Source: Trypanosoma brucei
Lineage: Eukaryota
Assembly (NCBI GenBank): GCA_000002445.1
Contig: CM000208.1
Location: forward strand, 3,168,001-3,232,000
DNA length: 64,000 nucleotides
Direction of reading: 5' to 3'
Part shown: piece after piece, positions 7,174-46,939 of the stretch
Position numbering within the stretch: the stretch's first letter is position 1
How the letters are laid out: every line of letters starts with the position of its first letter
Made by a program: the position numbers and the translations under genes
Notes under the pieces: model-generated
Seen by the model: only the letters and a program-made list of their open reading frames with translations
Database searches by the model: none
Told to the model about the DNA's origin: nothing

Positions 7174-8412
7174 TCACTCCACTTTCCTTACGGAGCCCTC
7201 AAGATTTCGCACATTCCACCATATTTGCCCAACGTGGCATACAACAGCTAGCACCGCTGCAGTTGGCGGGCAGCTAACGAATATCAGACAGACCAAAATA
7301 ACACCTGCAAGTGGCAGCGGATCGGTTTGCGGCAGTTTTGCGCAATGTGCGTAAATGGGAATGTGAACAATGGAACTACACGTGCATGCCATGGTAATGA
7401 TCCACAAAGCAACGTACGAGAAGGGCCCCAAGGTATAGGTCCCATACCCACCCTTTTCTATGTGGACAGCGTGGCACGGTATGATGGCAAGTAGCAGAGC
7501 CAAGTTGAGAACCAACATGATCGTTGGAAGACGAAGAAACATGCTTTTGCTTTTCGCACCAATATTCACGAGGACAAAGCACTGCGAGATCCAACATACG
7601 ACAAGCCCTGCGTCGATACACCGTAGAGGAATCAGTTGCCGTGCCCACGACTCAGGGAGTACCGCATTCAGGAGGGCAGGTGAGAATGTTGCTTTTCCAA
7701 CATTAGGGAACATAAGTGATATCCAACTCGTAAGAAAGAAAAACAACATTGCCTCGTCAACAGACACAAACCGATTGCCCCATATGAAGATATTTTTCTC
7801 ATAGTGGAGCGTGTGCGAAAGAATCGTGGGCAGGGCCACAAGGGCAGTCGTGACTGCAACATTGGAGAACGAGAATCCAAGTACAGACATTGAAACGCAG
7901 GTCGACATCAACGAAGTAACACAATCTAACCCGTGGTCTAGATATTCACCAATGTTGCTGGTTTTCTTCAAGCGACGAGCAAGGCAGCCGTCAGTATTAT
8001 CAGCAACACAGTAAATAAGGTTGAGAAACCCACAGAGTAGCAGCATGGATGTGGGTGTAAACACAGAGTTAAAGTATGGCTGCAGCATTGATGGGTAAAG
8101 CGGTGAAGGACCCGGGGCATCCATCCACTTAGGGCTTTTGATCAGAAAATACGAGCCGGGAACAAACGTCGCGAACGGGGGTTCAAAAAATGTGTTCAGT
8201 GGCATAGCTGTAAGCAGTAACAATGATGAAACGACTGTTGCAAAAATACCGGTTAGCGTCACTTTGTTTGGGGTCCATGTTGTTGGGTAAAGCGATGCCG
8301 CATATTTGTATACCGGACTCAATACATACTCGAAGAGGTACGACAGTTGTGGCACCACCGGCGACGACAGGTCCTCGCACCGCGTAGAAGTGAGTAAGTC
8401 TACTACTCCCAT
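7174..8412 (-). CDS. CDP-alcohol phosphotransferase (ethanolamine/choline phosphotransferase-like), multi-pass membrane protein
   Basis: The ORF contains the CDP-OH phosphotransferase motif D-G-x2-A-R-x8-G-x3-D-x3-D as 'DGCLARRLKKTSNIGEYLDHGLD', plus multiple hydrophobic segments. Start is placed at Met37 (MGVVDLL..., 'cat' at 8410-8412). An upstream in-frame Met at 8520 also exists. Confidence 0.7.
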   Translation of the reverse strand: MGVVDLLTSTRCEDLSSPVVPQLSYLFEYVLSPVYKYAASLYPTTWTPNKVTLTGIFATVVSSLLLLTAMPLNTFFEPPFATFVPGSYFLIKSPKWMDAPGPSPLYPSMLQPYFNSVFTPTSMLLLCGFLNLIYCVADNTDGCLARRLKKTSNIGEYLDHGLDCVTSLMSTCVSMSVLGFSFSNVAVTTALVALPTILSHTLHYEKNIFIWGNRFVSVDEAMLFFFLTSWISLMFPNVGKATFSPALLNAVLPESWARQLIPLRCIDAGLVVCWISQCFVLVNIGAKSKSMFLRLPTIMLVLNLALLLAIIPCHAVHIEKGGYGTYTLGPFSYVALWIITMACTCSSIVHIPIYAHCAKLPQTDPLPLAGVILVCLIFVSCPPTAAVLAVVCHVGQIWWNVRNLEGSVRKVE

Positions 8413-8742
8413 ATATTCTCCCCTCCTTCCGCTACGTTTAGTGTTTCCCTCCAATTTAACGCGAGAGGAGGCGTGATACTGGGTGCCCGGTAAAATACAA
8501 GAAGCAGATCCTTTGTGCACGTACTTACGTAATAAAAATATGAAGAAAAAATAAATAGAAATACGCTATCAAATATAATTGATGCCTGTTGTCCTTCCTT
8601 CTTTCCCTTCTCTTTCACGCTCACCCTCTAGGGTTCCCACAAAGGGAAGAGTGATCAAATGGAAGGGGAAAAACACATCTGCGTAACGTTTATTGCGATA
8701 AAGCATGTAACCATACACTTACAGAATTAACTCCCATCGCGA

Positions 8743-9591
8743 CTAGTGTACCATCATCAACCCACGTCCCCCAATGTTTTCCTTTACGGCGTGAATGTGG
8801 TCAATAATTCGATTGTCTGCCGTCCTGCAGATATATACGACAAGGCGGTTGTGTATCCCATGCGTATTGAGCAGCCGCCGCATCATCTTTGGACTCCATT
8901 CGAACTCTGTTCTTCCGTCATACGAACAAGGTTCAATGACATTGATTGTAGAGTCCCCCTGAAAGTATTTCAATTCCACCGCGAAGGCACGGTCGTTATG
9001 AAAGTCACGAAACCCAGCCACGAGACCGTGGTCGTGCATTACCCGCGCGCATCCTCGTGTTTCAATGGTGGAAGGTACGACAACGAACCGCTTCCGTTGC
9101 TCCGTTGCCTCCCGAATCCGATGACAGAAGTCATATATTGGAGTATACAAGTTCTCCTCCCGCCTGCGCGGCACGCGCTTTTCTATCTGGACTCGGTCGT
9201 CATCCTGGACACTCGGTTTGTCGTACGTCCCGTAGTATAACGCATGGTCCCCCTTATGCTGAAAGAAAAGCCTCGTGATAGGATCAGCAGGGAGGTCGCG
9301 CCGGCGCTCTACTCCCGGTAAATCAACGAGTGGGGTTTGTGGTACAGCTTCATGGGAACTGACTGCCTCACTGCGTTGCAGTCGCGCCTGCATTGGCATT
9401 CGCTCCTCCTCCAGCAGCGCGTTCAACTGCTGGCGGAGCAATCTCTCATCCCGTTTGACATCGTTGGCAACAGCGAAGAGGCTCCCTTCTCGCTCTCGCT
9501 TCCCATGCAGAAGACGATGCCCTTGCGCCGCACCTAAAGGGGGCACCGCCCCGTAAACCTTCGCCAGAGAAAGAAGCGACTGGCGGAGCAT
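8743..9591 (-). CDS. Hypothetical protein (282 aa), no motif recognised
   Basis: Complete 282-aa ORF on the cluster's coding strand with non-low-complexity composition. The overlapping plus-strand ORFs look like antisense shadows. Confidence 0.45.
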   Translation of the reverse strand: MLRQSLLSLAKVYGAVPPLGAAQGHRLLHGKREREGSLFAVANDVKRDERLLRQQLNALLEEERMPMQARLQRSEAVSSHEAVPQTPLVDLPGVERRRDLPADPITRLFFQHKGDHALYYGTYDKPSVQDDDRVQIEKRVPRRREENLYTPIYDFCHRIREATEQRKRFVVVPSTIETRGCARVMHDHGLVAGFRDFHNDRAFAVELKYFQGDSTINVIEPCSYDGRTEFEWSPKMMRRLLNTHGIHNRLVVYICRTADNRIIDHIHAVKENIGGRGLMMVH

Positions 9592-10216: not shown

Positions 10217-11116
10217 CTAAATAACATGTCGATACATTTCGTACGTTGAGCCTTCATCGGTCCTACGCTCGATCCGTATGATGCTTCCGCGGGGAAGGTC
10301 CAAATACTCAACCATTGGGTCGTCGTTAAGTATACGCGGAAGTTGCGTAATCATCAGCTTCCTTTGCTCCAGGAACGCCCGGACTTCAACATCCGTCATC
10401 GGCACGTGTTTCGGCACCGATTGGTGCCTTGATATGTTGTATGCGAGCTCATCCTCCTCGAATACCTGAATCCGAATAACCTGCCCTGTTGTACCGGGAT
10501 GGAGGCCGCCTCCCGCTTCACGGATACTTCGCCGACCTCCGCGAACCTTAGACCCAACCACAACGATCATAGAACTGGCATTTCTCCGTTGTGCCACCTC
10601 TCGAAGGTTATTTAGGACATCCACGCCAAGTGATTGAACAAAGAACGCACACAGAATTGTTTCGTTCTTTTTTCGACTAGAAGGCTCGGCTGTGGGGCCC
10701 CTTCCATCCACCTCATCTTCCGTTTTGCAACTGATTGCCCCACCCCCGAAACCGATTCGAGAGGATGACCCCTTACACACAAGCTCCAGCGAAGAGTAAA
10801 GGAAATCTTGTGAAGCATCACGGAGCGCTTTTGTACGCTTCGATTTCGACGGATCCTTTCCCGGCCTCCCTTCCTGCTTCGCCTCCTCTTCTTCTTCAGC
10901 GGTCGTCTGCCGGTGACGTTGTAAATAAGAAGAGCATCTTTGGGTAAACCACTGGTAATTCAGGCCATCCGTTATATCGTACAACCTTGAATCGCGGATT
11001 GCATTGGCAACATCGGACGGATGACTTACGACAAAACCACGGTCAATGGCCATTTGAATTACAGTATTGAATGCGCGGTACAACCGTATCATCTTGAAAC
11101 TTTTGACGGAATCCAT
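10217..11116 (-). CDS. RPB5-like RNA polymerase subunit, long divergent paralog (candidate RPB5z-type isoform)
   Basis: The N-terminus MIRLYRAFNTVIQMAIDRGFVV and C-terminus HQSVPKH...QLPRILNDDPMVEYLDLPRGSIIRIERRTDEGSTYEMYRHVI match the RPB5/ABC27 core (HELVPKH...QLPRI..DPVARY.G.KRGQVVKI.R.SETAGRY.TYR). There is a central roughly 80-aa insertion with an acidic/lysine-rich tract (EEEEEAKQEGRPGKDPSKSKRTK). Confidence 0.7.
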   Translation of the reverse strand: MDSVKSFKMIRLYRAFNTVIQMAIDRGFVVSHPSDVANAIRDSRLYDITDGLNYQWFTQRCSSYLQRHRQTTAEEEEEAKQEGRPGKDPSKSKRTKALRDASQDFLYSSLELVCKGSSSRIGFGGGAISCKTEDEVDGRGPTAEPSSRKKNETILCAFFVQSLGVDVLNNLREVAQRRNASSMIVVVGSKVRGGRRSIREAGGGLHPGTTGQVIRIQVFEEDELAYNISRHQSVPKHVPMTDVEVRAFLEQRKLMITQLPRILNDDPMVEYLDLPRGSIIRIERRTDEGSTYEMYRHVI

Positions 11117-11420
11117 ATTGTAGCGTGCTGGAGAACTAAACGAGGGAGGGTATAGTTGCTAATGGGGGTATGCTTGTTCCGTGTTGTACTGCTTTGTCTG
11201 GACTATTAAACGGAAGAGCCTATATTTTAATGCGCCACCCTGCGTGCACATAATAAAAGGGCAGGCAGCGAGAATGAAATGGTAAAGAAAGATGTATAAG
11301 TAAGAAATTTTCGCTATTCGGCAACGTAACAGTATGTGGTGAGTTCTGACACAACAAAGGCATTAGAAAACTTGTTGCGCCATGCACACCTTGTTATAAA
11401 TGGGTAGAAATAATACTGTC

Positions 11421-11434
11421 ATATATATATATAT
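11421..11434. repeat. (AT)n microsatellite
   Basis: atatatatatatat lies in the intergenic gap between the two RPB5 paralogs. Confidence 0.9.
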
Positions 11435-11510
11435 TTGTGGTTTCGTTAAGGGCTTGTGCCAGAACGAAACAGTCGCAGCCGTGGAAAGCACAAAGGATAC
11501 CGCGTGACCC

Positions 11511-12170
11511 CTACACTACCTGTCGGTACGTAACGTAGAAACCGGCCGATACGCTCTTCCGCTCGATTCGTACGACACGACCGCGCTCCAGCCCCAAGTA
11601 AGCTGCCACAGGATCAGTTGAGAGAATACGTGGTAGCATGTTTAGCTCCAATGAATGAGCCTCAAGCATCTCCTTGACCTCCTCGTCCTCTAGCTGTGTA
11701 TGTTTGGGTACCAATTCGTGATGAGTGATATTCACCACAAGGTCATCCTCGTCGAACAGCTGAACCTTTTGACCAGTGCCGCTACGGTTGATGCAATCCA
11801 CATAACGCTTAACTGTAGCATTTACCTTCCCATGTGTTACGATGATTACGCGTTCGCAATTCGCATCCATTGCTGTTTGGCAGTACCCCTTCATCCCCTC
11901 CATTCCTAGTTCAGAAGCAAAGAACACCATGGCCCGACTGCGGTGCGTGCCACCGACACGTTCACACGGTACCGTCATGCGCTCACGGTAAATCCTCCTC
12001 CCCTCTCTGTCTACATATTGCTCACAGAACTGTCCAACCGTCTCCGGGATGATGCTGCTCGGGACTTGATACTTCCGGTCCCTCATCATCTCCCCCACCG
12101 TCCTCATCACCCGAAACATACGATCATAGACAAGCTCCTCTTGGCCGATGGCGTAGCTTTCACTGCTCAT
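11511..12170 (-). CDS. RPB5: DNA-directed RNA polymerase subunit RPB5 (ABC27), canonical-length paralog (219 aa)
   Basis: Similarity runs across the full length: RMFRVMRTVGEMMRDRKYQV at the N-terminus, and the C-terminus ITHHELVPKHTQLEDEEVKEMLEAHSLELNMLPRILSTDPVAAYLGLERGRVVRIERKSVSAGFYVTYRQVV matches the RPB5 C-terminal domain almost motif for motif. Confidence 0.8.
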   Translation of the reverse strand: MSSESYAIGQEELVYDRMFRVMRTVGEMMRDRKYQVPSSIIPETVGQFCEQYVDREGRRIYRERMTVPCERVGGTHRSRAMVFFASELGMEGMKGYCQTAMDANCERVIIVTHGKVNATVKRYVDCINRSGTGQKVQLFDEDDLVVNITHHELVPKHTQLEDEEVKEMLEAHSLELNMLPRILSTDPVAAYLGLERGRVVRIERKSVSAGFYVTYRQVV

Positions 12171-13434: not shown

Positions 13435-16400
13435 CTATCTGCAACCGTCACTGCGTGGGATCCGATACGCGGCAATTGCTTTATTTCTTTTTCGCACCGT
13501 CACAAATACATGCGAAGCAAGTCCACTGGACAACACACTGCGAACATCCCTGATTGTGCGAACACGTTTTCCATCTACCTCCATAATAATATCACCCCGC
13601 TCAATACCGGAGGCAGAAGCTTCTGCCGTTTGCGCCTCAACGGTAAGTCGTTCAGGGGAGATAACTAGCCCTATGGGTATCCACTCCGGCATCATTGGCT
13701 CTCCTGTTTTGAGCCTGATTTCGCACGAGGGTGATTGCGAGCGGGCACCTGTGCTGCAAGGATTGGCTGAAGTGAAACGTAATTGGTTGTTCAGACTTCT
13801 AGAGCGCTGCGGGTACTTGGTCATTCCGCCACGCTGAGTCTTTTCAGGAGATGAAACACGGCCTTCGGATGATACCCTCCTCAACCTCGATCCCGCAGAC
13901 GGTGCTCGCTGATTTGCGCGACCTTGCCTTCCATACTCATCCTTTTGCTTTCCCTCCTCACTTGTTCGATTAGTTACCGGTGCGGATGCCACGGGCGTCA
14001 TTTTTCTCCCTCTCCCCCCTGTTACAACAGCAGGAGATACCATTTTCCCCTCTCTGGTCGCCGATGGATCCCTTCGAGGTACGCTTTTGGAAATGGAGCG
14101 CGGCGCTGCACCTGGCTGTGACTGGGTTCCACTGTTCCTCTTCAGTTCCTGTAACCGTGCTCGCAGATCACTCACCTGTGGTCGAGATCTCTTCTCCGCA
14201 ACCACATCCTGCGATCTATTGCTGCCTCCCGTTGTCGGTAGTCTCTGCGCTTCCCCACGGGAGGGATTCTTCAGTTGCATGTAAAGGGTCTTCGGTTGCT
14301 TAACCGCTTGGTGACCCTTCACTCGTGCATAGAACCGCCACTTGGCGAAAAAACGAAGCAGCAAAAACTTCATGACTGCACGTGTCATAACACGGACCGC
14401 AGTTTCTATGAACGGAGGAATTGAGCGCGCCGTGCTACTCCGCGGAGCAGTACGAGCACTAGGTGACCCGCCCTCGCTCCACGGCGTAAAATGCCAGCGG
14501 CGCTCCTTGTTGGACTCGCTACGAGATAGTAGAGAGGGTGAACGTGATTCAACACGTGCGAGGGTTCGTTCACTACACGGTTTCTTGGGGGGGAAACTTT
14601 CAGACGGTTGCTCACCGGCCCCTGGTATGTGGTCCTGGTACGAGCTGTAACGCGTTCCGTCCTTTCCACGCCAAGTTGTGGTAAGCTGTTGGTCCAGAGT
14701 ACGATTCGTAGCGCGTACCACTGAATGAGGGCTGCTTCGTTGAGAGGAATTAAAACTACCAATATCAGCAGAGGCTACAAGCAGTGCTGGGACGTTAATG
14801 CTGCAACTCAATGGTAGAAGTTCTGTGTCACCATAACGGTCAAGGTGAGAATTGCTTTGCCGCAGCTCGCGGACGCTGACACCTAGTTTCATAGCTACGG
14901 CTCTCAAATTCATTTCTTGTTTGACACGGCGTGATGGGGGTGTTTGACTTCGTAGGGACGGCGACATGCTAAGTGTTTCTGTGAGGGGCCCATACCGTGG
15001 GATGTGGAGCCTGGCAGACTGGGGCAGGGGCATGTCGACGTCAAACGTGGCGAGGTGCGGATTTGAAGCGATAAGCAACTCGAGCGGAACGTCGTGCAGA
15101 AGCGCGATATGGGTAAGTGTTGCGGGCTCGTTGTCTGGCGTAAGTGAATCTTCGTGAGAAGGAAGAAAAAATTCCTGCTGTTGTCGCCAATCGATACCAG
15201 CTATATCACTACACTCATCCTCTCCTTCAAGTGGATTACTACCTCCACCATCGACAAAGAGCTGAGCACTCGTGTTCGGCCCCCGTGGCGTTGCACAACA
15301 TTCCTCTTTGCTCAATAAATCATTTGGTGGTGCAGTGGTCACCACATTGTTTTCGTCGATACGATCGTGCAAACCTCCCGCTCCATGCGCAGCAGCACAG
15401 TCAAATCGGACGGCGGTCGGTTTGTCATGGTTGAGGCAACGCTTGTGAATTTTGAGCACTTGAGGGAAGTCAAATACAGCAATAAGAGCATTTATTTCAT
15501 CCTCCAATAGATAGCGGTCGTGCACCAACCCAAAAACAATACTGTTATCCTCGTGGGAAAATTCAACGTCCTTCACACACTCCCTCGATAATTCAAAAAG
15601 TGCAGTGACTTCGGACGAAAATGTCTGAATAATATCATCTTCAAATCTGCTAACTGTTATATCCCAGTCAGTACCAGAAAATGTCTTTTTGTGCCGCGTT
15701 GTGAGGAGCTGCAGGGCATCCTGTTGACTGGCGTACGGTCGCCGTTGTGGAGGTTGAGGGGGCAGTTGGGAGAGCCATTCCCGGTTAATGCTCTGCTCTT
15801 GCGGCAGAACGGAGGTTTGTTTTTTCGTTACATCGCATGATTCTTGCGGCTGTGAGGAAGAAAACAGTGAAATGGGGAGTAAATCCTCAGAGAAGCTATT
15901 TGGCTGAAGTGACGGTGAGTTACTGATGTCATCCCCCTGGTTCGGTAAGGGGCCAGCACCGTGTGCCTGCGACGCATCGTCGGCATCATGACTTTCCACC
16001 CCAAAATTCGCTACGGAATTACCGGGTGCAGCATCTGAACTAGCCAAATTCAGTCGTGCCTGAAACAGTGTCGGCCCCTCCCCGCCTGTACCAAGAACCT
16101 CACTTTCTCTCTCAGGTGGTTGCTGCGGCCACCGCACCGTGTGCCCAACAGGATCATAATGAAATGCCTCGTTAGGACTAGGTGGACCAGAAGAAGGCGC
16201 CTCCTCTTCCCTCAACGTGATTGGAAAGGTTGAAAGAGTGGACTCGTCATTTATATCGTTGTACCTCTGTAATTTATCCCCGTTCCAAATGCCGTTCCCA
16301 TGGGTATTCAGAGGGGCGTCATCTAGTTCACAGTGGCCATTATTGGCATCTTTTACGGCTGGGGAGCTGGCAAAGCCAGCACCACCAGACTCCAGTTCCT

Positions 16401-17493
16401 CCTCCAATCGAGTATATTGGGCAAGCAAGCCCGAGAACTCACATTGCCGTAGAAGCAGCTCGGCTCTGGCGTCATCTACAGAGGCAGGAAGTCGAATGTG
16501 AAACTGCACCCGCTGCACAGCACCGCTCCCACATTCTGTGCCAACGTCGAGAGCGCGTATGTTCCAAACAGAGTGGGCGTTGATGCCAAACGCCTCACCT
16601 ACATCCTTCGCAAAGATATCCTTCCACGTGCAGCGCGTTCCATCAATATCGTCAACTATCGCGTTCTCCTCGAGCAGCAGGCCCTGCCAGAGAGGTCCGC
16701 GGAATGATTTGCTAAGTACGGCAACACGGAACTTCCCTGTTGTACTACGGTAACCGTTGCTCTCTTCCTTCACTGTGCTTAATCCCTTTTCATTGCGGTG
16801 AGGCAAGTTAATTGCGCTATCTTCGTGACATATAAGATAATTTGTAACTATATGATCCTGCGTTTGTCTACAAAGTTCTGAGTGCTCCAGTAAGGGTTCC
16901 GCGGAAAACTCGTCTGAGGGCAATTTGACGGCTCGTGGAGCCACGTCCTCCCCACCTTGGGTAGAAAAGGTCAAAACGGGCGTAACAGAGAGGGTCGAGG
17001 CGACTGTAAACACCACATCTAGAAGTTCTTTTACTGCAGCGTGGGCCCGCTCCGTTATAACACGTCGCCCAGTAGAGCTATCGCCCAGTAAGCCGACGTG
17101 CTTCACACTGCCGAGCGTGGAGTTTACGCGCCGGACGCGCTCCCGCAGAAGCTGGGATTTACGCACAAACAACGCGGTATCAACTATCCTCGGTAAAGCG
17201 TAACCGTTAATGTCGTTGAATTCATTTGCAGCGTTACATTGAGGAGACTTTAAGCTTCCACCTGAAGCCGTCTCATTAATACTACACAATTGCTCTAGTA
17301 AAACTCGTGAATGTTCGCGCAACAGCATGCAAACGGCGGCAAGTTTCTTCTCCATGGGCAAATGTGGTGTTGTTGACGTCTCAGAGTCGCCCGTTTGTCC
17401 TCCCGCAGCCACAGCACGTAGATCTGCGTTTGTAAGTACCTCCTGGAGTATTTGAATAGCTTCGTTGCATGATTGATCCATTGCGCGACACAC
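13435..17493 (-). CDS. Large hypothetical protein (1352 aa), Ser/Pro-rich low-complexity middle, PDZ-like C-terminal segment
   Basis: A 4-kb uninterrupted ORF on the coding strand. The C-terminus (GLVISPERL...IERGDIIMEVDGKRVRTIRDVRSVLSSGLASHVFVTVRKRN) fits the PDZ consensus (GD.I..VNG..V....h...V.L). No other domain recognised. Confidence 0.5.
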   Translation of the reverse strand: MCRAMDQSCNEAIQILQEVLTNADLRAVAAGGQTGDSETSTTPHLPMEKKLAAVCMLLREHSRVLLEQLCSINETASGGSLKSPQCNAANEFNDINGYALPRIVDTALFVRKSQLLRERVRRVNSTLGSVKHVGLLGDSSTGRRVITERAHAAVKELLDVVFTVASTLSVTPVLTFSTQGGEDVAPRAVKLPSDEFSAEPLLEHSELCRQTQDHIVTNYLICHEDSAINLPHRNEKGLSTVKEESNGYRSTTGKFRVAVLSKSFRGPLWQGLLLEENAIVDDIDGTRCTWKDIFAKDVGEAFGINAHSVWNIRALDVGTECGSGAVQRVQFHIRLPASVDDARAELLLRQCEFSGLLAQYTRLEEELESGGAGFASSPAVKDANNGHCELDDAPLNTHGNGIWNGDKLQRYNDINDESTLSTFPITLREEEAPSSGPPSPNEAFHYDPVGHTVRWPQQPPERESEVLGTGGEGPTLFQARLNLASSDAAPGNSVANFGVESHDADDASQAHGAGPLPNQGDDISNSPSLQPNSFSEDLLPISLFSSSQPQESCDVTKKQTSVLPQEQSINREWLSQLPPQPPQRRPYASQQDALQLLTTRHKKTFSGTDWDITVSRFEDDIIQTFSSEVTALFELSRECVKDVEFSHEDNSIVFGLVHDRYLLEDEINALIAVFDFPQVLKIHKRCLNHDKPTAVRFDCAAAHGAGGLHDRIDENNVVTTAPPNDLLSKEECCATPRGPNTSAQLFVDGGGSNPLEGEDECSDIAGIDWRQQQEFFLPSHEDSLTPDNEPATLTHIALLHDVPLELLIASNPHLATFDVDMPLPQSARLHIPRYGPLTETLSMSPSLRSQTPPSRRVKQEMNLRAVAMKLGVSVRELRQSNSHLDRYGDTELLPLSCSINVPALLVASADIGSFNSSQRSSPHSVVRATNRTLDQQLTTTWRGKDGTRYSSYQDHIPGAGEQPSESFPPKKPCSERTLARVESRSPSLLSRSESNKERRWHFTPWSEGGSPSARTAPRSSTARSIPPFIETAVRVMTRAVMKFLLLRFFAKWRFYARVKGHQAVKQPKTLYMQLKNPSRGEAQRLPTTGGSNRSQDVVAEKRSRPQVSDLRARLQELKRNSGTQSQPGAAPRSISKSVPRRDPSATREGKMVSPAVVTGGRGRKMTPVASAPVTNRTSEEGKQKDEYGRQGRANQRAPSAGSRLRRVSSEGRVSSPEKTQRGGMTKYPQRSRSLNNQLRFTSANPCSTGARSQSPSCEIRLKTGEPMMPEWIPIGLVISPERLTVEAQTAEASASGIERGDIIMEVDGKRVRTIRDVRSVLSSGLASHVFVTVRKRNKAIAAYRIPRSDGCR

Positions 17494-23703: not shown

Positions 23704-25116
23704 TTACTTCTTTTTCTTGCTCTTCCCCGTTACTGCCTTTACTTGCTTGACACCCTCGATGTTAACTTTCGGGTCGAGAGCCAAGCACTCCGTTACAGCG
23801 CCCCAGCCAACAGTGATCTTCCCCTCGCGGATGGTAAACTTCAACCCCTTTTCCATTGGCATTGGATAGGCAAGTGTCAGCACCAACTCGCGACTATCAC
23901 CGGGCATGCAAACGAGTGTCTTTTCGAACTCCTTCAACTCTGCATCCTTCTTCTTTTGCTCATCCGCGTCCTTCCCATACTTTTTGTTCAACTCAGCAAC
24001 CTTCTGCTCACTTTCGGGGAAATTGAGATCCGCCGTGACATCGGCACAGCGAAAAAACAACTGTGGACGGTAATGGGGACTAAAAGCTGTGTGCCTCCCT
24101 CCCTCGTCCTTAGTAAGTACGTAGACTTGTGCACGCACTTTGTTAAAGAGTTTAGTGGCGCCTGGAGCCGATAGGACCATGCCGCGCTCAACGTTGTCCT
24201 TGGACAAAGTCGTTGTATCACCAGTTCCCAAAATGCTCGCGCCAACAGAATCGCCAGGCATACACTCCTCCAGTGTCTTGTGGTACATTTCAATACCTGT
24301 TACTTTCACGGTTAGCTTCTTCGCACTGAAGCCACTGAGCTCAGCGTCGGCACCGAGCTTCATGAGGCCCTGATCAACACGGCCCGTGACAATGACAGAT
24401 TTCTTGTCTTTTCCAATTTCGTAGACGTGCTCAATAGGCATTAGAAATGGCTTCTCGGTTGCACGGGGTGGGTCAGGAATCCATTCATCACACTTCGCTA
24501 CCAACTCCATGATCCGTGCTTCGCTATCGGTGTCACCCTCGAGTGCCTTAACGGCGGAGCCACGTACAAGTGGTGTTTCCTCAGCGGGAAACTTGTACTT
24601 CTCCAACAGCTCACGCAACTCCATCTCCACCAGCTCAATCATGTCCTCTTGACCCTGCATAAGATCACACTTGTTAATGAAGCCCACAAGGGCAGGAAGA
24701 CCAATCTGTGAACAAATAAGCAAATGCTCACGAGTTTGCGGCATGCAGCCGTCGTTAGCGGCAACGACAAGGATGCCACCATCCATCTGCGCGGCACCAG
24801 TAATCATGTTCTTCACAAAGTCCATGTGACCCGGGCAATCTATGTGACCATAATGCCGCTTCTCCGACTCATACTCCACGTGTGTAGCGTTAATGGTAAT
24901 CTTTCGACTCTTTTCCTCGGGAGACTTGTCGATTGCAAAATAGTCGAGGGCTCTTGCCTTACCTGCCTTCGCCAGAACCGTCGTAATGGCAGATGTCAAC
25001 GTTGTCTTACCATGATCAACATGACCAATTGTACCAATGATAAGATGTGGTTTACCGCGAACAAAGGCTTCCTTCTTTGCGTTTAAAAGAGAACAGCGAA
25101 AGGCAGCGCGAAACAT
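23704..25116 (-). CDS. EF-Tu: Mitochondrial translation elongation factor Tu (EF-Tu), with a Lys-rich insertion in domain III
   Basis: G-domain motifs [16 protein letters not shown] and NKCD are present, and domains II and III are colinear with bacterial EF-Tu. Start is assigned to [12 protein letters not shown] ('cat' at 25114-25116), a plausible mitochondrial presequence. The 81 codons upstream in the ORF track are probably 5' UTR. An insertion ([35 protein letters not shown]) interrupts domain III relative to E. coli EF-Tu. Confidence 0.9.
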
Positions 25117-25668
25117 GGTGACCGAACGAAATTTGTCCTTTCGGTTACCGTAAAGCACGAGGAATGCGCGCTCCTCCAAATGTAAACTATCACAAAATAT
25201 CCCCTTATTCGGTGGACTAACCTTTTCCCCTGATGCTGTGTATTTGTTTTGTAAACCCACCTGTGGGGCTAGCTTCCTTTGGCCACTTGCGACTAAAATG
25301 AAATGTGAAGAAATTGGGCTACAAGTTGAACATTGTAGAGGTGCATGAAACACCAACAAATGTAAATTGTGTTTGGAACCGCTTTACACATAGAAAAGTT
25401 GCTCTGGGGACTGAGGTACCGCTATCCGCGAAGGTGACGTATGGAAAGTGAACGTTGACTAACCACTTGTGTCTCCTCTATGTTTGACTCATTTTTGTTT
25501 ACATCAGTATGGCCCACGGAGCAACCCCTTCGGCACAGCGGCAGCGCAGTGGTTGCACACCTCTAGCTCTATAACAGCACTTTCCACTTCATAGGAAACC
25601 TGCGTCTCGTGCTCCCCTCCCATGTAGATTGTGTTGCCTTCCGTACCGTGTTAACACCTCATTCCCAG

Positions 25669-33521: not shown

Positions 33522-34514
33522 TCATTTAGTTATATCAGACAACACCTGCCCACCATGACGCCGCACGAAATCCAGACGGCGGGGCACCATGAATGCCTTC
33601 CCTTTGCCAAGTCGGAAAAAGATGGCAACGGCAAGAAGCCCGCTTAGCATGCCAATAACGCTACCAGCCACTACATCACCGCTGTGGTGACGATTGTCGC
33701 GTAACCGTGACGCAGCAACGGCGCATGCAAAATAAATCGGCAGGAGACCAACGAGCGTGCGCCACACAGATGCACCACTGAAGGCACGCAGAACTGAAAG
33801 GAAGTACATGGCCATAGGCGTGAAAACAGAGAAGGCGCAACCGCTGTGACCTGAAGGGAAAGACCGTCTGCCTTCTGCAGCAACCTTGCACCAATCTTTA
33901 ACTCTGGATGTCGAATTGTAACCTTCGCGTTCCAACCTAGCGAGGAAGTCGGGACGGAGCACACCAGCGTAAACTTTCAGAACTTCAACGATACAAAGGG
34001 CCAATACAACTGAGAAACCGTGCGCCACAACCCAATAATTAGCGGTTTCAAGGAACGTCATTAACCGCTTTGAGCTGCCTTTGTTCTCTGTCGTAAATGA
34101 CCCGTCAGGGCAGTTACCAGTACGTTCCGCGGCAGCATTATTAAACCCGTCGGAAGATACCTCCAGCATCTCTACTGGAGCCCGCGATTCATCAGGGAGA
34201 CGGTTAGACACATGTATATCCAAATACCACTCCCCCTTCGAGGCGAAAAGGGCACGTAAAAACTCCATTATGAAGTAAAATCCAATGGGCGCAACCTCCA
34301 TTATAAGGAGAGTTAACACAGAAAATGTTGAACTCTTTAGCTTGTAGCTTATGGTTGCATCGGTCCACGAAAAACCTCGGCAATACGGTTGAAGGGATTC
34401 CATCCACAGGCAAACGACGAATGCTATCCCAATTAGCAGAAAATAGTCCAAAACGTGAAATACTTTACAGTAGTGCACAAACTTCGAACAGCACGTCCCG
34501 CTTTCGGTGGTCAT
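33522..34514 (-). CDS. PAP2-family lipid phosphate phosphatase (phosphatidic acid phosphatase type 2), multi-pass membrane protein
   Basis: All three PAP2 signature motifs are present in order: K-x6-RP-like (KVYAGVLRPDF), PSGH (SFPSGHSG) and SR-x5-H-x3-D (SRLRDNRHHSGDV). Several hydrophobic helices. Confidence 0.7.
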   Translation of the reverse strand: MTTESGTCCSKFVHYCKVFHVLDYFLLIGIAFVVCLWMESLQPYCRGFSWTDATISYKLKSSTFSVLTLLIMEVAPIGFYFIMEFLRALFASKGEWYLDIHVSNRLPDESRAPVEMLEVSSDGFNNAAAERTGNCPDGSFTTENKGSSKRLMTFLETANYWVVAHGFSVVLALCIVEVLKVYAGVLRPDFLARLEREGYNSTSRVKDWCKVAAEGRRSFPSGHSGCAFSVFTPMAMYFLSVLRAFSGASVWRTLVGLLPIYFACAVAASRLRDNRHHSGDVVAGSVIGMLSGLLAVAIFFRLGKGKAFMVPRRLDFVRRHGGQVLSDITK

Positions 34515-38180: not shown

Positions 38181-39635
38181 CTACGCTATGTTGTACTTTG
38201 TGAGAAGTGACTCACTTGTCATCGTTTTGGGTCTCTCGATAGGTCGCCCCTGCAGTCGATCCCATACGATTCCTGTAAGGACCCCCAGCTGTCGCGAAAG
38301 ACCGAATAGAACTGTGTAAAATAACTGTTCTTTCATCCCATAGTGCTGAAGAAGTACACCGGATTGGGCATCAACGTTGGGGAACGGATTCCTCACCTTA
38401 CCATGTTTCTTGAGGATTCCGGGCATGATCTCGTAGATGGCGTCAACGAGTATAAAAAGCTCATCATTAGGGAAGTTATTTTTACAGTACTCGCGGAAGC
38501 AGGTGTAACGGGGGTCAGTCATACCAAGAACAGCATGCCCATAACCTGGCACCACCCTTTTGGCGTTGAGCACATCCCAAGTGAGTTTTTCCAGCTCCGC
38601 GGCAAGCCGCTTGCGATCATGAAGGTCCACACCTGCAGCTTTGCATTTGTCGCGCATCTCAAATAAATATGTTAACACCTCTTGGTTTGCCAAACCGTGA
38701 AGTGGGCCAGCGAGGCCGGCGAGACCTGCAACAAGGGATAGATATGGGTCACTGAGTGCTGATGCAACCAAAACTGTGGCGTGAGCAGACACGTTGCCAC
38801 CTTCATGGTCCGCATGGAGGCAAAGGTAAAGGCGCATGCAGTCCCAGAATGACTCATCTTTATATCCCAGCATGTTTGTAAAGTTTGCTGCCCAATCAAG
38901 ATTAGGGTCACTGGGGTTGGCCAGTTGCGCCTTACCAGTTGCGAGACGATTGTACACAATGGCCGCCACATGTGAAGAGCGAGCGATCAAGTCAAGGCTG
39001 TCATCCAGTGCATACTCCCAATAGTTTGTTTTGTTCGCCTTCCCCTGGGAATACGCTGTGGCAAACTTCGAGTACGTTTGGAGGGCCATTAAACCAGCGC
39101 CAAACTGAGTCATGGGATGAGAGTTATCCGGCAATGAGGCAATTGTCTTCACGGCAGCACTGATTGCACGCTCGTCTGCACGGCGGTGCAATTCTTCGTG
39201 CATTTCTTTCACCTGCCGCTCGTTTGGTATTGTGCCGGTCACAAGCAACCACAGCATTCCCTCAGGGAGCGGGGAGCTTCCGCCACGCCACGATTTGGGA
39301 AGTTTTTCGCAGCACTCCGAAATGGTGAGCCCCCGGAAGCGAATACCAACTTCCTTATCGAGATATGATGGTTCATAAACGAAACCGGTAACTCCGCGCA
39401 TGCCACCGTACATGCTGGACACCGTGGACTCTGAAAGCTTATCCCCGCCATGTTTGGCTATCAGTTGCTTAATGCGAGGCGCATCACTCTGGTGTTTTTT
39501 CAGTATAGACAGTTTCAGTTCATCAAAGATAGGCGAACCGCCGGCGGCAGCACAAAACAATGAGGGCGAAGATGAAAACCCTCGTAACATAGCTCCCCTC
39601 ACGATTCCAGATGAGTAACGAGCACGCATGCACAT
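38181..39635 (-). CDS. CS: Citrate synthase (mitochondrial)
   Basis: Full-length similarity to eukaryotic citrate synthase, including the GYGHAVL signature and catalytic His/Asp context (HADHEGGNVSAH). Start is set at Met25 (MCMRARYSSGIVRGAMLRGFSSS, presequence-like; 'cat' at 39633-39635). The ORF track extends to 39707. Confidence 0.9.
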   Translation of the reverse strand: MCMRARYSSGIVRGAMLRGFSSSPSLFCAAAGGSPIFDELKLSILKKHQSDAPRIKQLIAKHGGDKLSESTVSSMYGGMRGVTGFVYEPSYLDKEVGIRFRGLTISECCEKLPKSWRGGSSPLPEGMLWLLVTGTIPNERQVKEMHEELHRRADERAISAAVKTIASLPDNSHPMTQFGAGLMALQTYSKFATAYSQGKANKTNYWEYALDDSLDLIARSSHVAAIVYNRLATGKAQLANPSDPNLDWAANFTNMLGYKDESFWDCMRLYLCLHADHEGGNVSAHATVLVASALSDPYLSLVAGLAGLAGPLHGLANQEVLTYLFEMRDKCKAAGVDLHDRKRLAAELEKLTWDVLNAKRVVPGYGHAVLGMTDPRYTCFREYCKNNFPNDELFILVDAIYEIMPGILKKHGKVRNPFPNVDAQSGVLLQHYGMKEQLFYTVLFGLSRQLGVLTGIVWDRLQGRPIERPKTMTSESLLTKYNIA

Positions 39636-39996
39636 TGGAAATAAATCCTCCCGTTTAGTGATGGTGTTACCTTTCAAATGCAAATCTGACAAATTATAGA
39701 GGAACAACTGGCGGTATTTTCCTTTCTCTTTTTTGCTGTTGCTTTTTATATCCCTTTGTATGCCTTTAACTGCGAATTTTGCTCAGAACGCGGCGAGCCA
39801 CAGATTAAAATAAACAGAACGAAAAGGGTGCAACAGCTCTGTGGACAATGGAGTCCCCTCAGAGGGGTGGGGTTGGAGAGACCATGTTAAATATTAAAAA
39901 ATGAGATGCAACGGGGAAGTCGTGTATTTGGAAACGGCGTATTGTGCCCACACACAATTTTCAAGCTTCCTGCTGCCGCAACCGCACGGCGACGAT

Positions 39997-45073: not shown

Positions 45074-46939
45074 TCACTGCTCGTCTTCACTGTCCTTCAG
45101 TGCATCCTCAATCTGTTGTATTTTGGTATTATGTGCCCATTTATCATTAACCAGAAATGTGCGGGTCAGTGCGGTATGAACAGCATACCTCACATTGCTC
45201 ACCTTATCCTTCGCTAAACTCAGTAACCCATCGAGAAAGTACTTGTCCACCAGGCTCTCCGCGTCCAGTTTCGCTACCTCCTCCGCAATATATGGAAACA
45301 TCAGCCGATCACGAAAACTGTAGCGACCGGCGATCTGCAGTAACGCGTCCGCGTAGTCCCCGCAACTGTTCTCCCGCCCAGCATCAGCCAAATGCTTGAG
45401 AAGGACGGCCGCTGAGCGATACGTTGACCGCCGTACCTCCATCACGCTATCATCAAGAAGACGCAGTACTAGAGCGATAACCGAACCAAGCGCACTGCTG
45501 CTGGTGGGATCGAGCAGTACACCAACATCGCCAATCCTCTGCCCGACCACGTTCCGAAGCCGCCAGTTCTCACTGTCGAGGGGTACGTGACAAAGAAGTG
45601 GAACGAGTCGCTCACGCGTTGCCACGCCCATGACGGCAAGGAAGACGTCAGCATTTAGTACGACCCCCAACCGCACCTCGTCAAGATCTCTAATAAGCAT
45701 CTCAAAAGCAGTGACAAGGTGCGACTCGGTGAGATCTCGACCTAAAATCTTAGCAAATTCATGCAGTGAATGGGCCAGGGACTTGCGGACTTTCCATTTA
45801 ACATCCTTGAGCAGGGTTGCGTACGCATCTCCAGCCTCGTCCCAACGACCTGGTCCTGCGATCTCTACAACAGCAGGGAACGAGTAGGCACATGGTTCAC
45901 TGTAATCTGTGTCGCCATTCTCCGACTCAAAAGCCATATCCGTGTATGTCTTGAGCAGGGCTGGAGTTAGATCTGAAGGTCGAAGTGTGTGCAAAAATCT
46001 CCCCAGGTACTCGTAAGCTCCATTCCGCACCCAACGCGAGTTGTCATCCAGCAAAAGTCGAAAAGCGGGCACGAGTTTATCAGCTCTGGCGGTGGGACTC
46101 ACACCGAGAGAGATCTCTTCGATGTTCTCCGCGCAAGCTTTACGAACCCCCCAGATTTCGTCCAGGCACAGATTAAGGTATATCGGTAGCACAGTCTTGT
46201 CCGCTATTTCCTCCTGCACTACCTCGCATACTTTTCCCAAGTTCGCGCCGACAGTTTTTCGCACGGTAAAGTTACTATCGTTGGCCAACAGTTCCAACTC
46301 CGGAAGCACGTCGTTCACACAGCACTCTTTACCGAAAAGCCCCGCCATTTCGTTGAATAGAAGTGCTGCTACAACGCGATAATCCTCCGCCCTCTCGTCG
46401 CGCGCTAACATTATGGCAACATGAAGCAGGTGCTCCTGAATATGTTCGGGCTTAACGAGTTCACCAAGTGCTTTTAACGCTACCAAAGCTGCTGCCCCCA
46501 CCTCCACATTCTTGTCTACTAACATCTCAAATCCAATCGGAAGGAACTTTCCTAATAGACAGTTGTAACCAGCGTCACCACCCTCCTGAACAAAATATGC
46601 AGCCACTTCCGGGAGTTGCTGAACCAACATGCGCCGCACAAGGGGTTCACAGTCATTTGTGAATCTGCTCAGAAGTGGAATGATGTGGCTGGTACTCTGC
46701 TCAAAACCAGCATACCTTACAGTATCCGCGAGCTCACGCAGCAAAAATTGACGCTGCAATGAAAAGCCAGAAGAGTGATAGCTCAAGAGCCGGTTGAGTG
46801 GGTCTAGGGTGTCGTCAATTGCATACTCGTTGTAGATAAATTCCTCCTCACCGTCTCGTTGATTCTCGTCGAGCATAGCGGCACAGCTTTCCCCTCCTAA
46901 CCCCTTGCTGTAGTCTCGGTTTGCCCCACACGGCTTCAC
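45074..46939 (-). CDS. HEAT-repeat protein, PP2A scaffold (A/PR65) subunit-like
   Basis: There are many approximately 39-aa repeats of the PR65 type: LPELELLANDSNFTVRKTVGANLGKV, VLPIYLNLCLDEIWGVRKACAENIEEI, LVPAFRLLLDDNSRWVRNGAYEYLGRF, LVPLLCHVPLDSENWRLRNVVGQRIGDV, KDVKWKVRKSLAHSLHEF. The overall length of 621 aa is close to PR65. Confidence 0.55.
   Translation of the reverse strand: MKPCGANRDYSKGLGGESCAAMLDENQRDGEEEFIYNEYAIDDTLDPLNRLLSYHSSGFSLQRQFLLRELADTVRYAGFEQSTSHIIPLLSRFTNDCEPLVRRMLVQQLPEVAAYFVQEGGDAGYNCLLGKFLPIGFEMLVDKNVEVGAAALVALKALGELVKPEHIQEHLLHVAIMLARDERAEDYRVVAALLFNEMAGLFGKECCVNDVLPELELLANDSNFTVRKTVGANLGKVCEVVQEEIADKTVLPIYLNLCLDEIWGVRKACAENIEEISLGVSPTARADKLVPAFRLLLDDNSRWVRNGAYEYLGRFLHTLRPSDLTPALLKTYTDMAFESENGDTDYSEPCAYSFPAVVEIAGPGRWDEAGDAYATLLKDVKWKVRKSLAHSLHEFAKILGRDLTESHLVTAFEMLIRDLDEVRLGVVLNADVFLAVMGVATRERLVPLLCHVPLDSENWRLRNVVGQRIGDVGVLLDPTSSSALGSVIALVLRLLDDSVMEVRRSTYRSAAVLLKHLADAGRENSCGDYADALLQIAGRYSFRDRLMFPYIAEEVAKLDAESLVDKYFLDGLLSLAKDKVSNVRYAVHTALTRTFLVNDKWAHNTKIQQIEDALKDSEDEQ

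What the first reader, a model, noticed from the sequence alone, without database searches (positions are those of the whole stretch)
10217..12170. Two RPB5 paralogs in tandem: a canonical 219-aa copy and a 299-aa copy with a charged insertion
Both ORFs carry the diagnostic RPB5 C-terminal domain (..VPKH...QLPRIL..DP...YL.L.RG..+RIER.......Y..YR.V) and an RPB5-like N-terminal jaw segment. Trypanosomatids are known to encode duplicated polymerase subunits (the z isoforms such as RPB5z) that partition between RNA polymerases. Finding the two RPB5 genes adjacent and co-oriented suggests an origin by tandem duplication followed by divergence, and the insertion in the long copy is lineage-specific.
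Basis: partly seen in the sequence, partly recalled or inferred. Interest (0 to 1): 0.55.

Follow-up and report, generated by a model that had tools for sequence, protein, structure and literature searches.

The report
Known trypanosome RPB5 / RPB5z gene pair

Summary
Both ORFs are real, intact and co-oriented on the minus strand: a 219-aa protein (12170..11511) and a 299-aa protein (11116..10217). Both match RPB5 domains. Exact-sequence look-up shows the window is Trypanosoma brucei chromosome 10. The 219-aa protein is EAN78705.1/XP_827817.1, named "RNA polymerase II/III subunit". The 299-aa protein is EAN78704.1/CBH16508.1/SCU72652.1, named "RNA polymerase I subunit RPB5z" (Tb927.10.13310 in the literature). 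The accession numbers are consecutive. L. major has the same adjacency: LmjF.18.0780 is RPB5 and LmjF.18.0790 is RPB5z. The gene order FAZ1-domain protein, RPB5, RPB5z, mitochondrial S8, CDP-alcohol phosphatidyltransferase is conserved in T. grayi, L. donovani, Phytomonas and the free-living Bodo saltans. All long copies form one clade (91% bootstrap), so the tandem duplication is ancient rather than lineage-specific. The extra 80 residues are not a single charged insertion. They lie at four sites, three of them in the jaw region, and these sites are expanded across most of the RPB5z clade with poorly conserved sequence. An alignment-based AlphaFold model (pLDDT 87.6) keeps the full RPB5 fold. 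Verdict: observation confirmed, interpretation essentially right, already known. The only mildly new point is that RPB5z exists outside trypanosomatids, in Bodo.

The parts
11511..12170 (-). Canonical RPB5 CDS (219 aa), the Pol II/III subunit
   Evidence: ORF. Pfam Rpb5_N 1.7e-16 and Rpb5_C 8.7e-28. Exact identity to EAN78705.1/XP_827817.1 (T. brucei TREU927) and SCU72651.1, named 'RNA polymerase II/III subunit'. 82% identical to T. congolense RPB5 and 49% to Bodo saltans RPB5.
10217..11116 (-). RPB5z CDS (299 aa), the Pol I-specific RPB5 paralogue (Tb927.10.13310)
   Evidence: ORF. Pfam Rpb5_C 1.3e-21. Exact identity to EAN78704.1/CBH16508.1/SCU72652.1, named 'RNA polymerase I subunit RPB5z'. 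Gene ID from PMC9896412. Member of the long-form clade, 91% bootstrap. Full RPB5 fold.
10223..10441 (-). RPB5z C-terminal assembly domain (aa 226-298)
   Evidence: Pfam Rpb5_C over residues 226-298, covering profile positions 1-73 of 73. Matches archaeal subunit H and eukaryotic Rpb5 chains. Model pLDDT is about 95 here.
10817..10915 (-). RPB5z jaw insertion 2 (aa 68-100): charged, HRQTTAEEEEEAKQEGRPGKDPSKSKRTKALRD
   Evidence: No counterpart in T. brucei RPB5 in alignment A3. Modelled as part of a helical hairpin, H54-81 and H91-108, with pLDDT 78-92. Sequence is not conserved among orthologues.
10667..10759 (-). RPB5z jaw insertion 3 (aa 120-150): G/S/T/P-rich, partly disordered
   Evidence: No counterpart in RPB5. 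pLDDT is below 50 for residues 124-137. Length and sequence vary across the clade.
10949..10993 (-). RPB5z jaw insertion 1 (aa 42-56), containing the clade-conserved GL(D/N)Y.WF motif
   Evidence: This is the only insertion whose sequence is conserved among the trypanosomatid RPB5z orthologues.
11117..11510 (-). RPB5-RPB5z intergenic spacer, with a pyrimidine-rich tract (about 11293-11252) followed by AG
   Evidence: Sequence read. That this tract is the trans-splice acceptor region for RPB5z is an inference from general trypanosome mRNA processing and was not tested. No DNA repeat is shared between the two genes.
8743..9591 (-). Mitochondrial ribosomal protein S8 homologue (282 aa), the conserved downstream neighbour
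   Evidence: Pfam Ribosomal_S8 2.9e-09. Exact identity to EAN78703.1. Sits in the same position in L002-L008.
13435..17493 (-). FAZ1-domain/PDZ protein, the conserved upstream neighbour
   Evidence: Pfam FAZ1_cons 3.2e-19 and PDZ_6. The same neighbour is present in L. donovani and T. grayi.
7174..8520 (-). CDP-alcohol phosphatidyltransferase homologue, a conserved synteny marker
   Evidence: Pfam CDP-OH_P_transf 2.2e-07. Same position in Bodo, Leishmania, Phytomonas and T. grayi.

Best explanation
The window is part of Trypanosoma brucei chromosome 10. The two ORFs are the known genes for RPB5 and RPB5z. RPB5 is the canonical subunit used by RNA polymerases II and III. RPB5z is a divergent paralogue that, according to the literature, is incorporated only into RNA polymerase I.

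Both proteins keep the two-domain RPB5 architecture: an N-terminal jaw domain and a C-terminal assembly domain. RPB5z evolves about twice as fast as RPB5 and carries clade-wide, sequence-variable expansions in its jaw.

The pair arose by one tandem duplication before the split between Bodo and the trypanosomatids. It has stayed adjacent and co-transcribed in the same polycistronic unit ever since.

Shown here: identity, domain content, fold, clade structure and synteny. Taken from the literature: Pol I specificity. Inferred: the jaw expansions adapt RPB5z to Pol I-specific contacts.
For: Identity:
- The 299-aa, 219-aa and S8 proteins exactly match EAN78704.1, EAN78705.1 and EAN78703.1. The accessions are consecutive, on a 4.05-Mb contig, with source names RPB5z (Pol I) and Pol II/III subunit.
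- RPB5z is Tb927.10.13310 (PMC9896412).
- L. major LmjF.18.0780 is RPB5 (27.2 kDa) and LmjF.18.0790 is RPB5z (37.6 kDa). Both were detected by mass spectrometry (PMC7920299).

Function, from the literature:
- Reviews state that RPB5z, RPB6z and RPB10z are Pol I-exclusive paralogues, identified by in silico analysis and tandem affinity purification (PMC6562600; PMC8311968).
- YFP-RPB5z is used as a marker of Pol I and the expression-site body (PMC6893287; PMC4256477).

Domains and fold.

Clade: 21 long forms are monophyletic at 91% bootstrap, and canonical trypanosomatid RPB5s at 99%.

Synteny: the RPB5, RPB5z, mito-S8 order holds in Bodo saltans, L. donovani, Phytomonas EM1, T. grayi, L002 and L003. 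The window's flanks match.

Rate asymmetry: T. brucei against T. congolense is 82% identical for RPB5 and 44% for RPB5z. Against Bodo it is 49% and 29%.

No DNA-level similarity remains between the two genes, as expected for an old duplication.
Against: Nothing found contradicts the explanation. There are three caveats.
- Pfam Rpb5_N for the T. brucei long copy is below the curated cut-off (20.8 against 27 bits). The jaw assignment therefore rests on the predicted fold and on orthologues that do pass: Bodo 33.4 bits and L. donovani 34.2 bits.
- The NJ tree does not place the z clade as sister to kinetoplastid RPB5. It joins the outgroup side at 65%, probably through long-branch attraction. Sequence phylogeny alone therefore does not prove that the duplication happened within Kinetoplastea.
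- Pol I specificity was not tested here and is taken from papers.
Confidence: 0.97

Rival explanations
1. The long copy is a decaying or frameshifted pseudogene of RPB5.
For: Its N-terminal domain scores below the Pfam threshold. It contains low-complexity inserts. It evolves fast: 44% identity to T. congolense.
Against: The 299-codon ORF is uninterrupted, with an orthologous start. The protein is 100% identical in T. b. brucei, T. b. gambiense and T. equiperdum. Intact orthologues are kept in the same position from Bodo to Leishmania. The C-terminal domain is strongly conserved and the model is confident. The protein has been detected by mass spectrometry in T. brucei and L. major (PMC9896412; PMC7920299).
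Confidence: 0.01
2. The pair comes from a recent duplication specific to T. brucei or to Trypanosoma, and the insertion was gained in that lineage.
For: The sequence of the charged insert (AEEEEEAKQEGRPGKDPSKSKR) has no recognisable counterpart even in T. congolense.
Against: The same tandem pair, in the same five-gene synteny, is present in Bodo saltans and Leishmaniinae. The paralogues are only 36% identical over the best-conserved part. No DNA similarity remains between them. The jaw is expanded in nearly all z orthologues: 72-120 aa between anchor residues, against 27-62 in canonical RPB5.
Confidence: 0.01
3. RPB5z did not arise by local tandem duplication. It is an older or foreign RPB5 lineage that came to lie next to RPB5 secondarily.
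For: In the NJ tree the z clade groups with non-kinetoplastid outgroup RPB5s (65%) rather than with kinetoplastid RPB5.
Against: That placement is weakly supported and typical of long-branch attraction for a fast-evolving clade. Adjacency and co-orientation in every genome examined are most simply explained by tandem duplication. No z-like long form was seen among the top hits outside the kinetoplastid-like set in a scan of 1.84 billion representatives, although most of those hits are unnamed.
Confidence: 0.04

Closest known systems
Trypanosoma brucei RPB5z (Tb927.10.13310) and RPB5: the trypanosomatid z-isoform system (RPB5z, RPB6z, RPB10z)
   Same: Identical sequences, not merely similar ones. 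Same adjacency as L. major LmjF.18.0780 and LmjF.18.0790.
   Different: Nothing differs. This is the same locus.
Eukaryotic Rpb5/RPABC1 (yeast ABC27, human POLR2E), shared by Pol I, II and III
   Same: Two-domain architecture: jaw plus C-terminal assembly domain. Pfam Rpb5_N and Rpb5_C match, and the fold aligns over the full length to Rpb5 chains in Pol I, II and III structures.
   Different: In most eukaryotes a single Rpb5 serves all three polymerases. In kinetoplastids the role is split between two paralogues. RPB5z has about 80 extra residues at four sites, three of them in the jaw.
Plant NRPB5/NRPD5/NRPE5 paralogues (Pol IV/V-specific RPB5 variants)
   Same: An independent case of RPB5 duplication with polymerase-specific partitioning. 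These chains appear among the structural and sequence matches: 7eu0_E, 8hil_E and 8hyj_E.
   Different: The plant variants specialise for Pol IV/V, not Pol I. They are a separate duplication in a different lineage and lack the jaw expansions seen here.
Archaeal RNA polymerase subunit H (Rpo5)
   Same: Homologous to the C-terminal assembly domain, aa 226-298: E down to 7.6e-09 by sequence and TM about 0.9 by fold.
   Different: Archaeal H lacks the jaw domain entirely.

Membership tests
RPB5 / RPABC1 family (Pfam PF01191 + PF03871) | C-terminal assembly domain (Rpb5_C) above the curated threshold | tested here: met
   219 aa: 96.3 bits. 299 aa: 76.5 bits. The cut-off is 23.5 bits, and both match the full profile, positions 1-73.
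RPB5 / RPABC1 family (Pfam PF01191 + PF03871) | N-terminal jaw domain (Rpb5_N) above the curated threshold: short copy | tested here: met
   61.1 bits against a cut-off of 27, covering profile positions 4-88 of 89.
RPB5 / RPABC1 family (Pfam PF01191 + PF03871) | N-terminal jaw domain (Rpb5_N): long copy | tested here: inconclusive
   By sequence: 20.8 bits, below the 27-bit cut-off, and only the first helix (residues 8-32) matches. By fold: the AF2 model (pLDDT 87.6) aligns over both domains to Rpb5 chains, with TMt 0.72-0.86 and E down to 6e-16. Orthologues in Bodo (33.4 bits) and L. donovani (34.2 bits) pass the cut-off. Taken together the jaw is present but interrupted by insertions.
Kinetoplastid RPB5z (Pol I-specific RPB5 paralogue) | Sequence identity or orthology to the protein named RPB5z | tested here: met
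   [quoted passage not shown] Falls within the long-form clade at 91% bootstrap.
Kinetoplastid RPB5z (Pol I-specific RPB5 paralogue) | Genomic position immediately downstream of canonical RPB5, as for LmjF.18.0780 and LmjF.18.0790 | tested here: met
Kinetoplastid RPB5z (Pol I-specific RPB5 paralogue) | Physical incorporation into RNA polymerase I and exclusion from Pol II and III | not testable with these tools
   Literature only. Tandem affinity purification and localisation are cited in PMC6562600 and PMC8311968. YFP-RPB5z marks Pol I foci.

The most novel reading that the evidence does not exclude
There are two minor extensions that I did not find in the open-access literature searched.

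(a) RPB5z is not restricted to trypanosomatids. An RPB5z-type gene sits in the same five-gene synteny in the free-living Bodo saltans and in another deep kinetoplastid contig. Specialisation of a Pol I-specific RPB5 therefore predates parasitism, and predates the use of Pol I for VSG and procyclin mRNAs.

(b) Part of the charged 'insertion' is predicted to form an ordered helical hairpin projecting from the jaw. It could provide a Pol I-specific contact, for example compensating for the A49/A34.5 or A14/A43 subunits that have not been identified.
Probability: 0.3. Interest if true: 0.25.

Novelty: already known. Interest (0 to 1): 0.08.

Why it matters
As a discovery it matters little. The gene pair is annotated in public T. 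brucei, T. equiperdum and Leishmania genomes, and RPB5z has been characterised biochemically as a Pol I subunit. The check does show that the first-stage reader can correctly recognise polymerase-subunit paralogues from raw sequence. It also adds modest context: the duplication and its synteny extend to Bodo saltans, RPB5z evolves about twice as fast as RPB5, and the extra length is a set of clade-wide jaw expansions rather than one species-specific insert. These points bear on how kinetoplastid Pol I acquired a dedicated set of 'shared' subunits, but they do not open a new question.

Tried and rejected
1. The first word-indexed homologue search with the full 299-aa protein gave only 2 hits, probably because the EEEEE run saturated the candidate list. 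Repeating it with the low-complexity inserts removed gave 6 hits. The exhaustive HMMER scan gave 1,483 hits.

2. Single-sequence AlphaFold was useless (pLDDT 41.7). The alignment-based run was good.

4. The Biopython NJ bootstrap timed out and was replaced by a numpy NJ.

5. The primary papers could not be read. Devaux et al. 2007 (MBoC) is not held. Kelly et al. 2005 and Nguyen et al. 2006 were not looked up. Functional claims therefore rest on reviews and on later papers that cite them.

6. I searched for the neighbouring T. brucei gene IDs (Tb927.10.13300 and Tb927.10.13320) to name canonical RPB5 and found nothing. Adjacency is shown instead by consecutive GenBank accessions and by the window itself.

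7. The pseudogene, recent-duplication and foreign-origin readings were considered and rejected, or rated unlikely. See the rival explanations.

Full report
**Observation.** The region holds two intact, co-oriented ORFs on the minus strand: 12170..11511 (219 aa) and 11116..10217 (299 aa). A 394-bp spacer separates them. In Pfam the short protein matches Rpb5_N (61.1 bits, E=1.7e-16) and Rpb5_C (96.3 bits, E=8.7e-28). The long protein matches Rpb5_C (76.5 bits, E=1.3e-21). Its Rpb5_N match is weak (20.8 bits, below the 27-bit cut-off) and covers only the first helix. BLASTP between the two gives 36% identity over the C-terminal 143 residues, E=9e-29.

**Identity of the locus.** All 19 ORFs of 200 aa or more in the window are on the minus strand, which is typical of a kinetoplastid polycistronic unit. 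An exact-sequence look-up gave these matches:
- The 299-aa protein equals EAN78704.1, CBH16508.1, SCU72652.1 and XP_011778772.1. [quoted passage not shown]
- The 219-aa protein equals EAN78705.1, XP_827817.1 and SCU72651.1, named "DNA-directed RNA polymerase II/III subunit".
- The downstream 282-aa protein equals EAN78703.1, named "30S ribosomal protein S8".

The three accessions are consecutive and sit on a 4.05-Mb contig, so the window is T. brucei chromosome 10. The literature gives Tb927.10.13310 as RPB5z (PMC9896412). For L. major it gives LmjF.18.0780 as RPB5 (27.2 kDa, Pol II and III) and LmjF.18.0790 as RPB5z (37.6 kDa, Pol I), which are consecutive gene IDs (PMC7920299). Both the paralogue pair and its adjacency are therefore already in public annotation.

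**Known function.** This comes from the literature and was not tested here. [quoted passage not shown] YFP-tagged RPB5z is routinely used as a marker of Pol I and the expression-site body (PMC6893287; PMC4256477). The primary papers could not be read: Devaux 2007 is not held, and Kelly 2005 and Nguyen 2006 were not looked up.

**Which copy is z, and how old is the duplication.** A scan of 1.84 billion representative proteins found 1,483 RPB5-family hits. The top ~20 were long forms of 279-361 aa. I built an NJ tree with 74 taxa, 216 columns and 200 bootstraps:
- The 21 long forms make one clade at 91% bootstrap. Its named members are T. congolense, T. rangeli, T. conorhini, Phytomonas EM1 and Hart1, Strigomonas culicis and Bodo saltans.
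- Canonical trypanosomatid RPB5s make a 99% clade.
- Bodo-type canonical RPB5s make a 100% clade.
- The position of the z clade relative to the outgroup is not resolved. It joins the outgroup side at 65%, probably through long-branch attraction.

**Synteny.** I tested this directly. The order RPB5, long RPB5, mitochondrial S8, CDP-alcohol phosphatidyltransferase, GCN1-like HEAT protein is found in four named genomes:

| Genome | Locus | RPB5 (aa) | Long copy (aa) |
|---|---|---|---|
| Bodo saltans | L005 | 217 | 279 |
| L. donovani | L006 | 213 | 342 |
| Phytomonas EM1 | L007 | 229 | 307 |
| T. grayi | L008 | 219 | 271 |

Two unnamed Logan contigs also carry RPB5, the long RPB5 and S8 in that order (L002; L003). 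The window's own flanks fit: a FAZ1_cons/PDZ protein upstream and CDP-OH_P_transf downstream. No DNA-level repeat links the two genes. The tandem duplication therefore predates the split between Bodo and the trypanosomatids, and the pair has remained linked since.

**The "insertion".** Alignment with canonical RPB5 places the extra ~80 residues at four sites:

| Residues | Length | Character |
|---|---|---|
| 42-56 | 15 aa | holds a GL(D/N)Y.WF motif conserved among the trypanosomatid RPB5z orthologues |
| 68-100 | 33 aa | charged: 8 D/E, 9 K/R |
| 120-150 | 31 aa | G/S/T/P-rich |
| 204-209 | 6 aa | - |

Between two invariant anchors (F57 and F159), z-clade proteins have 47-120 residues, with most at 72-120. 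Canonical and outgroup RPB5s have 27-62. The expansions are therefore a clade-wide feature whose sequence is lineage-specific. L003's copy is the least expanded.

The AlphaFold2 model built with a 42-sequence alignment is confident: pLDDT 87.6 and pTM 0.84. It places much of the charged segment in a helical hairpin (H54-81 and H91-108), and only residues 124-137 fall below pLDDT 50. High confidence for long charged helices should be read with caution. Foldseek against the PDB returns only Rpb5 chains of Pol I, II, III, IV and V at the top, aligned across both domains, with E down to 6e-16 and target-normalised TM 0.72-0.86. Archaeal subunit H matches the C-terminal domain.

**Rate asymmetry.**

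| T. brucei compared with | RPB5 identity | RPB5z identity |
|---|---|---|
| T. congolense | 82% | 44% |
| T. rangeli | 76% | 43% |
| Bodo saltans | 49% | 29% |

The only clade-discriminating substitutions conserved on both sides are few: z has V269 and M294 where canonical has A and T, so the C-terminus reads "MYRQVI" against "VTYRQVV".

**Rivals.**
- The pseudogene reading is excluded. The ORF is intact with an orthologous start, the protein is identical across Trypanozoon, intact orthologues occur from Bodo to Leishmania, and the protein has been detected by mass spectrometry.
- A recent lineage-specific duplication is excluded by the synteny in Bodo.
- A non-tandem origin is unlikely but is not formally excluded by my NJ tree.

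**Verdict.** The only mildly new points are these:
- An RPB5z-type gene is present in conserved synteny in the free-living Bodo saltans. A review describes the z subunits as trypanosomatid-only (PMC6562600), and I found no open-access paper mentioning RPB5z in Bodo.
- The extra length consists of multiple jaw expansions, and part of it is predicted to be ordered.

Interest is low.

Noticed in passing
L005:6855-7694 (Bodo saltans CYKH01001076.1), protein CUG82291.1: The free-living Bodo saltans has an RPB5z-type long paralogue (279 aa) in the same five-gene synteny. A review says the z subunits are 'only present in trypanosomatids'. The public name for this protein, 'DNA-directed DNA polymerase II subunit', is a misnomer.
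   Followed up: partly
window 10217-12170 compared with orthologues: RPB5z evolves about twice as fast as RPB5. Against T. congolense, identity is 44% for RPB5z and 82% for RPB5. Against Bodo it is 29% and 49%.
   Followed up: partly
window 10793-10957 (RPB5z aa 54-108): The alignment-based AlphaFold model places much of the charged 'insertion' in a confident helical hairpin (pLDDT 78-92) rather than a disordered loop. Only residues 124-137 are below pLDDT 50.
   Followed up: partly
L003:675-2166 (Logan SRR22387817): This is a deep-branching kinetoplastid contig whose RPB5z copy has almost no jaw expansion: 47 residues between anchors, against 103 in T. brucei. Its 288-aa gene model appears to carry a spurious N-terminal extension of about 51 aa that overlaps the RPB5 ORF.
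   Followed up: no
window 1-64000: All 19 ORFs of 200 aa or more are on the minus strand, forming one polycistronic unit. Identified members include an EF-Tu-like GTPase (23704-25359), a PAP2 phosphatase (33522-34514), citrate synthase (38181-39707), a PP2A-A-like HEAT protein (45074-46939), a sestrin/PA26-like protein (48715-51399) and an FtsH-like AAA/M41 protease (57440-59149).
   Followed up: partly
window 8743-9591: The mitochondrial ribosomal S8 homologue has an N-terminal extension of about 150 aa ahead of the S8 domain (Pfam match over residues 151-281). It is a constant downstream neighbour of RPB5z across kinetoplastids.
   Followed up: no
window ~11421-11436: There is a short (AT)n microsatellite in the RPB5-RPB5z intergenic spacer. 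A pyrimidine-rich tract followed by AG lies further downstream, ahead of the RPB5z ATG.
   Followed up: no
T. b. equiperdum RHW68875.1 (P0047): A 117-aa fragment is annotated as RPB5z in one T. brucei equiperdum assembly. This is probably an assembly or annotation truncation of the same gene.
   Followed up: no
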